From NCBI GenBank assembly GCA_003250835.1, contig QKJL01000018.1, forward strand, positions 1 through 42,350: a stretch of 42,350 nucleotides of DNA. The letters run 5' to 3'. Positions 832 through 32,259 of this stretch are shown here, piece by piece; positions within the stretch are counted from its first letter, which is position 1, and every line of letters begins with the position of its first letter. The position numbers and the translations under genes were made by a program. A model generated the notes under the pieces. That model had not been told where the DNA came from. It worked only from the letters and a program-made list of their open reading frames with translations, and ran no database searches. The DNA is from Alphaproteobacteria bacterium. Lineage in GTDB: Bacteria > Pseudomonadota > Alphaproteobacteria > Rs-D84 > SZUA-605.

Positions 832-881
832 AATAATAGGTTTTTCATAATTTTTATATAAGAGAATTCTTTTTTTGTCAA
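832..881 (-). promoter_or_regulatory. Promoter plus AAACCTATTATT leader motif for 497-811
   Basis: TTGACA(881-876)-N17-TATAAA(858-853); AAACCTATTATT at 843-832. Confidence 0.65.
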
Positions 882-29670: not shown

Positions 29671-29937
29671 TTATTGTAGTAATGCTCTTGCCCGTATTGC
29701 AGGAGGATGAAGTAATCCATTCACAATATGTGATGGCATATCATCTTCTACTAGTAAATAGGCTTGGGGCCCATATTTACAAAATGAGGTATGGTTTGGG
29801 CATACTCTACCCGATTTACCATGCTCTTTACAATCTCCGCAACTTATAAACTTTGATTCTGCTACTGATTTACTCATATCTATAATAGTTTTCTTTTCTG
29901 AAAAAAGCCCTACACATGACTGTGAAGGACTTTTCAT
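29671..29937 (-). CDS. Cys/His-rich small protein, paralog B
   Basis: CGDCKEHGKSGRVCPNHTSFCKYGP. Confidence 0.7.
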   Translation of the reverse strand: MKSPSQSCVGLFSEKKTIIDMSKSVAESKFISCGDCKEHGKSGRVCPNHTSFCKYGPQAYLLVEDDMPSHIVNGLLHPPAIRARALLQ

Positions 29938-29963: not shown

Positions 29964-30176
29964 TTAATTTAAATACTGTTGCTGTAAATAAGCAGGAGTA
30001 TTTTCATCCAATAACATAATTTTATCAGGTCCATATTCACAGACCGCACCATTATGTTCTGGACAGATATTTCCTGCTTGTCCTTTTTTAGGACAATTTT
30101 TTCCGCAGTTTGATTTTTGTTGAGTTAACACTACCGTTGGTCTATTACAGAGACCCGAATTTATTATTTTCTTCAT
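29964..30176 (-). CDS. Cys/His-rich small protein, paralog A
   Basis: CGKNCPKKGQAGNICPEHNGAVCEYGP. Confidence 0.7.
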   Translation of the reverse strand: MKKIINSGLCNRPTVVLTQQKSNCGKNCPKKGQAGNICPEHNGAVCEYGPDKIMLLDENTPAYLQQQYLN

Positions 30177-30250: not shown

Positions 30251-30688
30251 TTATTTAAGTGATTGAGCTGCGTTATTTGCCAATTGATCAACACGCTCAT
30301 TTTCTGGATGGCCAGCATGACCTTTTACCCAATGCCATTCTATTTTATGTCTTTGCACCTGTTCATGCAGTGCTTGCCACAATTCTTTATTCTTTACTGG
30401 TTTACGCGCAGCTGTTTTCCAGCCATTTTTAATCCAGCCATGAATCCATGTCATCATGCCATTTTTTACATATTGTGAATCTGTATAGATTTCAACCTCG
30501 CATTCTGTCTTTAATGCTTTTAACCCTTCGATTACTGCGAGCAATTCCATTTTATTATTTGTTGTATTTTTTTCCGCCCCGGACATTTCTTTTTCTTTGT
30601 CCCCAGATATCAACAATGCCCCCCAGCCGCCTGGCCCCGGGTTTCCTAAACATGATCCATCTGTATATAATTTTACTTTTTTCATCAT
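30251..30688 (-). CDS. rnhA: Ribonuclease HI
   Basis: [46 protein letters not shown]. Confidence 0.97.
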
Positions 30689-30716
30689 GTCTCGCATTAT
30701 ATCATATTTATTTCAT

Positions 30717-30750
30717 AAAAAAAAGGAGTGACTGTCACATGTCACCCCCC
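30717..30750 (-). terminator. Terminator of putative ncRNA
   Basis: Minus strand GGGGTGAC-atgtgaca-GTCACTCC-TTTTTTTT. Confidence 0.8.
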
Positions 30751-31124
30751 TCACGACTTTTACTCTGCTACCAGAATAATAGGTTTGTAAAAACGAAGTG
30801 CTACCGGATCCGAACCAGTATCTTTGGCCAATGAGCCACTGCTCTCTCCACTACGGCTTTAGTTAACACCAATTTGTCATTCGACTTGTTGATATTGTTC
30901 ATTTCAAGATTTTTACACCTTACCTTCTCGGATATGATCCTTTTCGAAAGCACCATTTCTGGTTTTCATTACTTAATATTAACGTTAATTGGATCCAAGA
31001 CAATCTCATTGTCTTGATTTGCGTTCTTTATAACAGCTCATGTCTCCACGACTGAACAAAGCCTTCACACTTGAGCTAAGCATCTTCTATCGTAATAATA
31101 GGTTTAATAAGTATTCCTACTTAG
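30717..31124 (-). ncRNA. Putative novel structured ncRNA containing a split tRNA-like domain
   Basis: Own promoter and terminator, only ORFs of 33 aa or less, three GNRA-capped hairpins, a 9-bp hairpin, T-arm ACTGG-TTCGGAT-CCGGT, flanking AAACCTATTATT repeats. Confidence 0.55.
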
Positions 31125-31130
31125 TTCTTA

Positions 31131-31158
31131 ATACTATTCTAATATAAAAATCAGTCAA
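31131..31158 (-). promoter_or_regulatory. Promoter of putative ncRNA
   Basis: TTGACT(31158-53)-N16-TAGTAT(31136-31), divergent from the rplU promoter. Confidence 0.6.
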
Positions 31159-31244
31159 TTATTTTTTATTCTTTTTTTGGTTGACTTTAATAAAGGAATC
31201 AGTATATTGTACACATCTGAATTATGAACAAAAAGGAAATTAAG

Positions 31245-31541
31245 ATGTTTGCTGTATTTAAAACAGGCGGAAAACAGTATAAAGTTCAAAAAGGCGATGT
31301 ACTTTCAATTGAAAAGATTGACGCTGATAAAAAAGTTGAATTTGATGAAGTTTTAATGGTGAATGATACTATTGGAACTCCTGTTGTTAAAGGTGCGAAA
31401 GTTATTGCAGATGTTTTGGAACAAATGCGTGACGAAAAAGTGATTGTGTTTAAGAAAAAACGCCGTCAAAACTATCGTCGTAAAAACGGACATCGTCAAC
31501 ATTTAACAGTAATTAAAATCCAAGATATTAAAGTTGCTTAA
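31245..31541 (+). CDS. rplU: 50S ribosomal protein L21
   Basis: [30 protein letters not shown]. Confidence 0.97.
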
Positions 31542-31573: not shown

Positions 31574-31831
31574 ATGGCACATAAGAAAGCCGCCAGTGGT
31601 TCAAAGAACGGTCGCGATTCAGCTGGTCGTCGTTTAGGTATTAAAAAATACGGTGGTCAACACGTACTTTCTGGTAACATCATTGTTCGTCAACGTGGAA
31701 CAAAATATCACGCTGGTTTGAATGTTGGAATTGGAAAAGATCATACTTTATTCGCAACTATTGAAGGTAAAGTAGAATTTAAACGCGGATCACAAAACCG
31801 TAGCTATGTATCGGTATTGCCTACTGAATAA
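31574..31831 (+). CDS. rpmA: 50S ribosomal protein L27
   Basis: MAHKKA...[30 protein letters not shown]. Confidence 0.97.
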
Positions 31832-32259
31832 TGAGTGACGATAACGATATATTCGAAAGATTAATGGAACACGTTCAGCCCTTAAAAAACGCTGAACGTG
31901 TTTCAACAAAAACTGCGCCGAAAATTTCTTCTGATCACAAGAATGAAAAGCAGTTTACCCTTAAAATTGAAAAACGCCCTTATGATCGTTCTCTTGACTT
32001 ACACGGAATGCATGAAGATGAAGCATTTTATGTTGTGGAACGTGTTTTTAAAGAAAATCCAGGAAAACAAATCCTTGTTATTACAGGAAAATCAGGCGTT
32101 CTGCGCCAAAACTTTCCACGTTGGTGTGAACTTGGCAAACTTAAACCATTTATTCAATTTTATAATGTAGCTCCAGATGAACATGGTGGAGATGGTGCGT
32201 TTATTGTCACGCTCAAAAAAGCTTCTCAACCAATCTTTGGTGATCAATACATTCGATAA
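31831..32259 (+). CDS. Smr/MutS2-domain protein
   Basis: LDLHGM, LVITGKSGVLR, HGGDGAF. Confidence 0.88.
   Translation: MSDDNDIFERLMEHVQPLKNAERVSTKTAPKISSDHKNEKQFTLKIEKRPYDRSLDLHGMHEDEAFYVVERVFKENPGKQILVITGKSGVLRQNFPRWCELGKLKPFIQFYNVAPDEHGGDGAFIVTLKKASQPIFGDQYIR

What the first reader, a model, noticed from the sequence alone, without database searches (positions are those of the whole stretch)
30795..31085. tRNA-like cloverleaf split in the D-loop by a 219-nt stem-closed insert
Seen on the minus strand: a 5' piece AGATGCT-TA-GCTC-AAGTG (31085-31068) and a 3' piece AGTGGAGA-GAGC-A-GTGGC-TCATTG-GCCAA-AGAT-ACTGG-TTCGGAT-CCGGT-AGCACTT-C (30852-30795). Joined at the shared AGTG they give 72 nt in tRNA register: a 6/7-bp acceptor stem (A3-C70 mismatch), a GCTC/GAGC D-stem with a TAGCTCAAGTGGAGAGAGCA D-arm, and a canonical-looking T-arm. 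The insert's ends pair with each other (GGCTTTGTT 31063-55 with AACTAAAGCC 30864-55). The anticodon arm is abnormal (6- or 8-nt loop around CAT) and CCA is not encoded. Known bacterial tRNA group I introns sit in the anticodon loop, and tmRNA carries its insert in place of the anticodon arm, so a D-loop insert does not match either. Inference: a tRNA-mimic ncRNA, a spliced or processed tRNA-like RNA, or an interrupted pseudo-tRNA.
Basis: partly seen in the sequence, partly recalled or inferred. Interest (0 to 1): 0.85.

Follow-up and report, generated by a model that had tools for sequence, protein, structure and literature searches.

The report
Interrupted tRNA-like gene, orphan
A stand-alone, roughly 290-base gene in a small vent bacterium looks like a transfer RNA broken by about 200 extra bases; nothing like it turned up in relatives, and it is probably a decayed or re-used tRNA copy rather than a new kind of RNA.

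Summary
The locus lies on the minus strand in a 526-nt spacer between rnhA and rplU. A promoter-like site lies upstream and a strong terminator downstream.

No Rfam family, plain ARAGORN tRNA or tmRNA matches it.

Joins of this kind also arise by chance in 1 of 685 random genome regions.

ARAGORN's intron mode reads the native DNA differently. This is the only intron call in the 671-kb genome. The null is 0.225 calls per shuffled genome.

The tRNA body is degenerate: A3·C70, G58 and no encoded CCA, whereas all 18 real tRNA genes encode CCA. The insert shows no group I signal.

RNase P RNA and tmRNA are excluded. No homolog was found in 328 genomes of the order or in the closest relative. No RNA data exist.

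Verdict: most likely a tRNA-derived, interrupted gene found only in this lineage, probably not a working tRNA. Interest is moderate.

The parts
31131..31158 (-). Promoter-like site: TTGACT, 16 nt, TAGTAT
   Evidence: Consensus scan, 9 of 12 matches. Seven promoter-like sites were found in the 900-nt region against 3.1 +/- 1.8 in shuffles. This is inferred, not shown.
31094..31105 (-). Copy 1 of the 12-mer AAACCTATTATT, 6 nt upstream of the terminal helix
   Evidence: It is a genome-wide leader motif: 8 exact copies against about 0.5 expected.
31053..31085 (-). 5' tRNA-like part (exon 1 in the ARAGORN intron reading): acceptor 5' strand AGATGCT, TA, D-arm GCT-CAAGTGTGAA-GGC, anticodon-stem 5' strand TGTTC
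Evidence: The thermodynamically best terminal helix starts 2 nt earlier, at 31087.
30851..31052 (-). 202-nt intervening sequence (ARAGORN reading).
Evidence: It holds a 9-bp hairpin, CAAGACAAT/ATTGTCTTG, at 31016-30996. No group I signal. Single copy in the genome.
30795..30850 (-). 3' tRNA-like part (exon 2): anticodon-loop remainder TGGAGA (GGA at 30849-30847), stem GAGCA, variable-arm hairpin 30839-30820, T-arm 30819-30803, acceptor 3' strand 30802-30796, discriminator C at 30795, no CCA
Evidence: The Rfam tRNA model gives a weak local match at 30803-30845 (13 bits, E 7.4 across all families).
30775..30786 (-). Copy 2 of the 12-mer AAACCTATTATT, 9 nt downstream of the tRNA-like 3' end
30721..30752 (-). 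Intrinsic terminator-like hairpin (12 pairs, 5 G-C) followed by a T run
   Evidence: 2 found in the region against 0.5 expected.

Best explanation
The locus is a stand-alone gene derived from a tRNA and interrupted by about 200 nt. It is present, as far as could be searched, only in this lineage.

Proposed working:
- It is transcribed on the minus strand from a sigma-70-like promoter near 31158-31131 to the terminator at 30752-30721 (inferred).
- The two ends of a roughly 291-nt core (31085/31087 to 30795) pair into an acceptor-like helix stacked on a T-arm-like hairpin. This is shown by sequence and folding.
- The most conventional reading is a class II, tRNA-Ser(GGA)-like body whose anticodon loop carries a 202-nt insert.

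The tRNA body has lost features that every working tRNA of this genome keeps, a canonical tRNA-Ser(GGA) exists elsewhere, and the insert has no self-splicing signature. I therefore think the insert is not removed.

The product would be a tRNA-like RNA or expressed pseudo-tRNA. Its end module could still be trimmed by RNase P and 3' exonucleases and could receive CCA from the genome's CCA-adding enzyme (inferred). It would not serve as a decoder.

Whether the RNA has a function of its own or is a decaying duplicate cannot be told from one sequence.
For: tRNA-likeness:
- ARAGORN in intron mode calls the native DNA tRNA-Ser(GGA), c[30795,31085], with a 202-nt insert.
- It is the only intron-bearing call in 671 kb. 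The null is 0.225 calls per dinucleotide-shuffled genome (8 of 40 shuffled genomes had at least one).
- Both in-silico products are called at default settings, against 0 of 2000 shuffles each.
- 42 of 31,646 single deletions give a tRNA call here, against 1 of 685 random regions and 1 of 325 shuffles with any call.
- Of 53 tRNAs from this genome and G001, the closest to the class II product is this genome's own tRNA-Ser(GGA), at 54 of 89 identities.

Stand-alone unit:
- A promoter-like site and a terminator flank it.
- By reading, rnhA has its own extended -10 (TGATATAAT) 7 nt before its ATG.
- G+C is 0.395 against 0.217 in the flanking spacer.
- The terminal helix has p 0.97-0.99.

Probably not a working tRNA:
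- Plain ARAGORN and Rfam do not see it.
- It has an A3-C70 mismatch, G2-U71 and G at T-loop position 58.
- CCA is not encoded, whereas 18 of 18 tRNA genes here and 33 of 35 in G001 encode it.
- It is further from any real tRNA (at most 50 of 72, or 54 of 89, identities) than real tRNAs are from each other (median best match 60).
- A canonical tRNA-Ser(GGA) sits on contig C32.

No self-splicing signature: the Rfam group I model finds nothing.

CCA addition is possible: a CCA tRNA nucleotidyltransferase homolog lies on C28 (NF009814, E 1.3e-55, below the curated cut-off).
Against: - No homolog was found, so no covariation supports any helix: blastn over 328 genomes of the order, a covariance model over 61 genomes including G000, 28 rplU-upstream regions of relatives (a 29th, of 9 nt, was dropped), and the whole closest relative G001.
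- No RNA run holds the locus, so transcription, ends and splicing are unobserved.
- Chance cannot be dismissed. Intron-mode calls occur in 8 of 40 shuffled genomes, and 4 intron calls appear in 1.54 Mb of other loci. T-arm-like hairpins are common outside tRNAs (17 in the genome).
- Neither cloverleaf is the minimum-energy fold of its in-silico product. The class II stems have p about 0 in the unspliced RNA. The overall fold z-score is only -1.76.
- The 5' end has the look of an mRNA start: promoter, the 12-mer, then 10 nt to an ATG that opens a 25-codon frame.
- A dense 0.67-Mb genome would not be expected to keep a useless 400-nt unit. That argues for some function, which I cannot name.
Confidence: 0.5

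Rival explanations
1. One reading: a functional tRNA-mimic RNA. A class I tRNA frame carries a retained domain of about 215-219 nt emerging from the D-loop, so the scaffold is a chimeric one like tmRNA or a Y-like RNA, and the insert is the working part.
For: - The joined D-arm TAGCTCAAGTGGAGAGAGC differs by one base from a D-arm found in real tRNA-Arg genes of many bacteria.
- The GCTC/GAGC stem has p 0.18-0.42 in the unspliced RNA, higher than the class II stems.
- The joined 72-mer is called by ARAGORN, against 0 of 2000 shuffles.
- The unit keeps a promoter, a terminator and raised G+C in a dense genome.
Against: - This reading leaves a 6-nt anticodon loop and a 4-nt variable loop.
- Joins of this type arise by chance at about 0.15-0.3% per 431-nt region.
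- The insert-closing stem has p of only 0.14.
- The insert's G+C equals the genome mean, and the fold z-score is -1.76.
- No relative carries it.
Confidence: 0.15
2. A working intron-containing tRNA-Ser(GGA). The 202-nt insert is removed, either by a very divergent self-splicing intron or by a protein route, CCA is added, and the tRNA decodes UCC/UCU.
For: - ARAGORN's intron mode gives a 7-nt anticodon loop with U33, a purine at 37 and anticodon GGA, plus a class II D-arm ending GAAGGC as in this genome's own tRNA-Ser(GGA).
- From recall, the anticodon loop is where known bacterial tRNA introns sit.
- The insert ends in G.
- A CCA-adding enzyme homolog is present.
Against: - The Rfam group I model finds nothing, in the 311-nt scan or genome-wide at E up to 10.
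- The 5' exon ends in A, not in the U that group I splicing needs (the rule is from recall).
- G2-U71, A3-C70 and C73 do not fit bacterial SerRS identity (recall).
- T-loop position 58 is G.
- A canonical tRNA-Ser(GGA) already exists.
- The insert sits at 32/33, not at a known intron position (recall).
Confidence: 0.1
3. Chance resemblance. The spacer holds an unrelated small RNA, a leader or short-ORF mRNA, or decaying DNA, and the acceptor/T-arm look is coincidental.
For: - Chance calls do occur: 8 of 40 shuffled genomes in intron mode, 1 of 685 random regions in the deletion scan, and 17 T-arm-like hairpins outside tRNAs.
- The 5' end looks like an mRNA start, with the 12-mer 10 nt before an ATG, as in 3 other exact copies.
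- There is no conservation.
Against: - By my scaling, the chance rate for one particular 431-nt unit is about 1e-4 in intron mode and about 0.3% in the deletion scan.
- The candidate gives 42 positive joins, against 4 in the one random hit.
- The open frames are short: 25 and 51 codons, with several stops in every frame. The 51-aa frame has no relative in 40 other genomes.
- U8-A9-G10, a D-arm and a T-arm all lie in tRNA register.
Confidence: 0.2
4. A very divergent housekeeping RNA: RNase P RNA, which is undetected in this assembly and is about 290 nt long in relatives, or tmRNA.
For: - No RF00010 match in this genome, while 35 of the 40 other genomes searched have one of 286-351 nt.
- The candidate is 291 nt long with paired ends.
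Against: - A profile HMM built from 12 relatives' RNase P RNAs and a covariance model run with filters off find nothing across the element.
- The blocks invariant in those 12 RNase P RNAs (GAGGAAAGTC, ACAGAATCC) are absent from the element.
- The relative's RNase P neighbours are also missing from this 84%-complete assembly, so the true gene probably lies in the unassembled part.
- The genome's two-piece tmRNA is on contig C5 (182 bits).
Confidence: 0.01

Closest known systems
Bacterial tRNA genes with a group I intron in the anticodon loop (tRNA-Leu UAA of cyanobacteria, tRNA-Ile of Azoarcus, tRNA-Arg of Agrobacterium; named from recall)
   Same: In the ARAGORN intron reading, a tRNA frame is interrupted by roughly 200 nt inside the anticodon loop. 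It is a stand-alone gene, and the insert ends in G.
   Different: - No group I core is detectable.
- The 5' exon ends in A.
- The insert sits at 32/33.
- The tRNA body is class II and degenerate.
- CCA is not encoded, although all other tRNA genes here encode it.
tRNA pseudogenes and non-decoding tRNA-like RNAs (for example tRNA-Other of Bacillus cereus; recalled)
   Same: It has a cloverleaf-like frame with broken invariant positions, is redundant with a canonical isoacceptor, and has its own transcription signals.
   Different: It carries a large internal insert and is present in one lineage only. No function or expression is known.
tmRNA (tRNA-like domain plus a large internal domain)
   Same: The 5' and 3' ends form an acceptor helix and a T-arm around a large internal domain.
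   Different: - The tmRNA models do not match it. The genome's own two-piece tmRNA is elsewhere, and ARAGORN's tmRNA mode is negative even when relaxed.
- A D-stem and an extra hairpin are kept.
- I identified no tag reading frame by eye.
Archaeal and nucleomorph tRNA introns at non-canonical positions, including the D-loop (recalled; abstract of PMC4090602 seen in a search listing)
   Different: Those introns are short and are flanked by a bulge-helix-bulge motif cut by a protein endonuclease that bacteria are not known to have. By eye I saw no such motif at these junctions; I ran no formal test.

Membership tests
Canonical bacterial tRNA gene | A contiguous cloverleaf found by standard tRNA finders | tested here: not met
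   Plain ARAGORN finds 0 genes in the window. Rfam at gathering thresholds finds 0. The genome-wide RF00005 search lists only the 18 ordinary tRNAs. The Rfam tRNA model gives only a 13-bit local match.
Canonical bacterial tRNA gene | A 7-bp acceptor stem and a T-loop with A at position 58 | tested here: not met
   A3-C70 mismatch and G2-U71. The T-loop TTCGGAT has G at position 58. The A58 rule is from recall.
Canonical bacterial tRNA gene | A 7-nt anticodon loop with U33 and a purine at 37 | tested here: inconclusive
   Met in the class II/intron reading, where the loop is A-T-G-G-A-G-A. Not met in the D-loop reading, where the loop has 6 nt.
Canonical bacterial tRNA gene | An encoded 3' CCA, the habit of this genome | tested here: not met
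   18 of 18 tRNA genes of this genome end in CCA. The candidate is followed by GTTTTT.
Group I intron in a bacterial tRNA | A group I catalytic core (Rfam RF00028) | tested here: not met
   There is no RF00028 match in the 311-nt permissive scan or genome-wide at E up to 10. The control rang in 8 of 14 named genomes.
Group I intron in a bacterial tRNA | The insert lies in the anticodon loop, with U before the 5' splice site and G as the last intron base | tested here: inconclusive
   ARAGORN places the insert in the anticodon loop and the insert ends in G, but the 5' exon ends in A. The U/G rule is from recall.
tmRNA | A match to the tmRNA models, or an ARAGORN tmRNA call | tested here: not met
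   RF00023 and RF01849 hits lie on other contigs; alpha_tmRNA scores 182 bits on C5. ARAGORN's tmRNA mode finds none, even when relaxed.
Bacterial RNase P RNA (type A) | The conserved core and its secondary structure | tested here: not met
   RF00010 finds none. nhmmer with a 12-sequence clade profile gives no hit in the element better than E 44. The clade covariance model with filters off gives only hairpin-sized local matches.
Miniature transposable element inserted in a tRNA gene | Multiple copies, terminal inverted repeats and a target-site duplication | tested here: not met
   It is single copy in the genome. The end pairing is only 9-10 nt. The 10-nt junction repeat is no better than in 285 of 300 shuffles. 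The flanking 12-mer is a genome-wide motif, not a duplication.
Archaeal-type (bulge-helix-bulge) tRNA intron | A bulge-helix-bulge motif at both junctions and a splicing endonuclease in the genome | not tested
   I only inspected the junctions by eye. I did not search for an endonuclease or a ligase.

The most novel reading that the evidence does not exclude
A bacterial tRNA frame that carries an internal domain of about 200 nt which is not a group I intron. Either the domain is removed by a splicing route not yet known in bacteria, or it is kept, giving a new tmRNA-like chimeric RNA built on a tRNA scaffold with its own promoter.
Probability: 0.12. Interest if true: 0.8.

Novelty: new variant of a known kind. 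Interest (0 to 1): 0.4.

Why it matters
If the RNA is made and its insert is either spliced or functional, it would add a new way of interrupting or extending a tRNA frame in bacteria. All known bacterial tRNA introns are group I introns in the anticodon loop (recall).

If it is a decaying duplicate, it is an ordinary by-product of genome evolution. Its main use is then as a caution: plain tRNA finders miss such loci, and a manual "join" can be drawn in more than one way.

The case also shows how much look-elsewhere correction such manual joins need. About one random 431-nt region in 700 can be turned into an ARAGORN-positive tRNA by a single deletion.

Tried and rejected
**Known families**
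- RNase P RNA. It looked promising because this genome has no RF00010 hit and relatives' RNase P RNAs are about 290 nt. I rejected it using a clade profile HMM, a clade covariance model with filters off, and the absence of the invariant core blocks. Motif likenesses I saw by eye came from recall and did not survive these tests.
- tmRNA. Rejected.
- 6S RNA. RF00013 has no hit in the genome, and the element does not fold as a rod.
- Group I intron. No signal.

**Other origins**
- Pseudogene of a protein. Every frame has several stops. The 51-aa frame has no relative in 40 other genomes.
- Transposon-type insertion. It is single copy and the junction repeat is not significant.
- The 23-nt flanking "direct repeat". 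This is two copies of a genome-wide 12-mer, not a target duplication. By my null, a 12-nt exact repeat arises in 4.2% of random 701-nt sequences.

**Homolog hunts that found nothing**
- blastn in 40 relatives and then in 328 genomes of the order, which gave only 17-59-nt chance hits.
- A single-sequence covariance model (R1) in 61 genomes including G000. Outside G000 the best hit was 14.6 bits and partial.
- 28 rplU-upstream regions of relatives (a 29th, of 9 nt, was dropped). None has rnhA there. One has tRNA-Gly in the same position and orientation, and another has tRNA-Leu further upstream.
- 80 metagenome loci found with RnhA. The best is 67% identical, so none is a near relative. I scanned them only with ARAGORN.
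- Exact-pattern scans of viral contigs: 2 chance hits in G+C-rich coding DNA, and 0 hits.
- A genome contigs pattern scan, which returned ordinary tRNA-Arg genes.
- Phage and plasmid collections: no match.
- The whole closest relative, G001: ARAGORN intron mode found 0 intron calls and nhmmer found nothing at E up to 10.

**Expression.** No RNA holder is listed for this DNA. Contigs from DNA runs only confirm the sequence.

**Literature.** Two full-text searches. I saw only the listings and the starts of abstracts, and none describes such a locus. I opened no paper and saw no supplements. These two searches do not show that nothing is in print.

**Not possible here.** Infernal or tRNAscan-SE scoring of the in-silico joined or spliced sequences, because those programs are not in the script box and the tools take only stored sequence.

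**A wrong guess.** My regex for a CCA-enzyme motif, typed from recall, found nothing. The family search then found the enzyme.
Full report
**Setting**

The window is contig C23 of a 671-kb, 39-contig assembly that is 84% complete. The organism carries a two-piece alpha-type tmRNA on another contig (182 bits), so it is an alphaproteobacterium with a small genome. Public runs that hold this DNA are labelled hydrothermal vent metagenome.

The element lies on the minus strand in a 526-nt spacer between rnhA (30251-30697, minus) and rplU (31224-31541, plus). The window is otherwise densely coded.

**Check of the observation**

The join gives 72 nt. The acceptor has 6 of 7 pairs with an A-C mismatch, and CCA is not encoded.

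Plain ARAGORN finds no tRNA or tmRNA in the window. Rfam finds nothing at gathering thresholds. Two permissive scans, of 1101 nt and then 311 nt, give only a 13-bit local tRNA match at 30803-30845.

ARAGORN calls the joined 72-mer a tRNA with a 6-nt anticodon loop. It calls none of 2000 dinucleotide shuffles.

The join was chosen by eye, so I measured how often any single deletion of 100-330 nt turns a 431-nt region into an ARAGORN tRNA:

| Sequence tested | Result |
|---|---|
| Candidate region | 42 of 31,646 joins positive |
| Random regions of the same genome | 1 of 685 regions with any positive join |
| Shuffles of the candidate region | 1 of 325 with any positive join |

The one random hit lies inside an rpoC-like gene. 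By my arithmetic this means about 0.3-0.6 chance cases per 42-kb window. The join alone is suggestive, not decisive.

**Transcription-unit features**

- A promoter-like site (TTGACT, 16 nt, TAGTAT) lies at 31158-31131. A 12-pair terminator with a T run lies at 30752-30721, both on the minus strand.
- By reading, rnhA has its own extended -10 (TGATATAAT) 7 nt before its ATG. The element is therefore a separate unit.
- G+C is 0.395 for the element and 0.534 for its 3' piece. It is 0.217 in the spacer towards rplU and 0.354 genome-wide. The insert alone is 0.353.
- Folding 31087-30794 gives a terminal helix, GAAG-A-UGC with GCACUUC, at p 0.97-0.99.
- The whole fold is only mildly better than shuffles (z = -1.76).
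- An independent assembly contig from one public run covers 30400-31500 without a difference. It may be the source sample.

**A second reading of the same bases**

With introns allowed, ARAGORN calls the native DNA a tRNA-Ser(GGA), c[30795,31085]:
- exon 1 is 31085-31053;
- a 202-nt insert (31052-30851) lies in the anticodon loop;
- exon 2 is 30850-30795.

In this reading the body is class II:
- a 3-bp D-stem, GCT/GGC;
- a D-loop ending GAAGGC, as in this genome's own tRNA-Ser(GGA);
- an anticodon stem TGTTC/GAGCA;
- a 7-nt loop A-T-G-G-A-G-A with U33 and a purine at 37.

How specific this call is:
- It is the only intron-bearing call in the genome.
- Forty dinucleotide-preserving shuffles of the genome gave 0.225 such calls per genome; 8 of the 40 had at least one. 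Scaled to the window, that is about 0.014.
- In 1.54 Mb of other fetched loci there were 4 intron calls, with inserts of 97 to 1446 nt.
- The whole closest relative had none.
- The spliced 89-mer is called tRNA-Ser at default settings, against 0 of 2000 shuffles.

Of 53 tRNAs from this genome and G001, the nearest to the spliced form is this genome's tRNA-Ser(GGA), at 54 of 89 identities. That is still far below the likeness between ordinary tRNAs (median best match 60 of about 76).

Neither reading is favoured by thermodynamics. The class II stems have p about 0 in the unspliced RNA, and neither in-silico product folds to a cloverleaf as its minimum-energy structure. I therefore treat the position of the insert as ambiguous, with the anticodon-loop reading better supported statistically.

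**Is it a working tRNA?**

Probably not.
- It has an A3-C70 mismatch, G2-U71, G at T-loop position 58 and discriminator C. In the class II reading there are also two bases between the D and anticodon stems.
- All 18 tRNA genes of this genome encode CCA, as do 33 of 35 in G001. This locus does not.
- A canonical tRNA-Ser(GGA) exists on contig C32.
- A CCA-adding enzyme homolog is present on C28 (NF009814, E 1.3e-55, below the curated cut-off). CCA could therefore be added in principle.
- The insert has no group I signal.

**Known families excluded**

- RNase P RNA was the main rival. It is undetected in this assembly, while 35 of the 40 other genomes searched have one of 286-351 nt.
  - A clade profile HMM and a clade covariance model run without filters find nothing in the element.
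  - The genes next to RNase P RNA in the relative are also absent from this incomplete assembly.
- tmRNA is elsewhere.
- 6S RNA has no hit.
- SRP RNA is elsewhere.

**Relatives**

No homolog turned up:
- by blastn in 328 genomes of the order;
- by a covariance model in 61 genomes including G000;
- in 28 rplU-upstream regions of relatives (a 29th, of 9 nt, was dropped);
- in the full 931-kb closest relative;
- in phage, plasmid or viral collections.

Covariation therefore cannot be tested. No RNA run holds the locus.

**Flanking repeat**

The 23-nt direct repeat around the element consists of two copies of AAACCTATTATT.
- This 12-mer occurs 8 times in the genome, against about 0.5 expected.
- Counting copies with up to one mismatch, 18 of 32 lie within 30 nt upstream of an open frame of at least 60 codons, against 22% of random positions.
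- It usually sits just downstream of a promoter-like site.

It is a genome-wide leader motif, not a target-site duplication. The 10-nt repeat at the insert junctions is no better than the best repeat in 285 of 300 shuffles.

**Conclusion**

The best-supported reading is a tRNA-derived, interrupted, stand-alone gene found only in this lineage. It probably yields a tRNA-like RNA or is a decaying duplicate, not a decoder (confidence 0.5).

Rivals:
- a functional tRNA-scaffold RNA with a retained domain (0.15);
- a working intron-bearing tRNA-Ser (0.1);
- chance (0.2).

It remains of moderate interest because the insert is not a group I intron and the unit keeps its transcription signals in a very compact genome.

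Noticed in passing
window 832-843, 30775-30786, 31094-31105 (all minus strand); also G000 contigs C1:2063, C4:2835, C13:9226, C19:33609, C22:7554: The 12-mer AAACCTATTATT occurs 8 times exactly in the 671-kb genome, against about 0.5 expected. Counting copies with up to one mismatch, 18 of 32 lie within 30 nt upstream of an open frame of at least 60 codons (22% for random positions), usually just downstream of a promoter-like site. It looks like a leader or ribosome-loading motif in a genome that seems to lack Shine-Dalgarno sites. The closest relative, G001, has only 1 exact copy.
   Followed up: partly
L172 682-852 (minus strand) = G001:C2:66626-66796: The same-family relative has two adjacent odd tRNA genes without encoded CCA, whereas its other 33 distinct tRNAs encode it. 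One has anticodon CTA (amber-reading; ARAGORN labels it Pyl). One is a 72-nt tRNA with a 6-nt anticodon loop. They score 54.7 and 44.5 bits with the Rfam tRNA model. They lie downstream of a winged-helix regulator-like frame.
   Followed up: partly
whole genome G000: Only 18 tRNA genes and no RNase P RNA or 6S RNA are detectable in this 84%-complete assembly, while the relative G001 has 37 tRNA matches. RNA genes seem under-assembled, so absences in this genome should not be read as losses.
   Followed up: partly
window 29964-30176 and 29671-29937 (minus strand): Two small cysteine-rich frames (70 and 88 aa) lie downstream of rnhA and look alike by eye (not aligned). Neither has an NCBIfam match.
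   Followed up: partly
window 30697-30715 (minus strand): rnhA appears to be leaderless: an extended -10 (TGATATAAT) ends 7 nt before its ATG. rplU also has a very short leader after TTGACT, 16 nt, TATATT.
   Followed up: no
window 31831-32259 (plus strand): A 142-aa Smr-domain protein (weak SmrA/SmrB/MutS2 C-terminal matches, all below the curated cut-offs) lies directly after rpmA.
   Followed up: no
L110 921-996 (G010) and L117 896-980 (G031): In 2 of 28 relatives scanned (a 29th region, of 9 nt, was dropped), an ordinary tRNA gene sits upstream of rplU on the opposite strand, the same orientation as the element here. They are Gly-GCC about 120 nt upstream and Leu-TAG about 520 nt upstream.
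   Followed up: no
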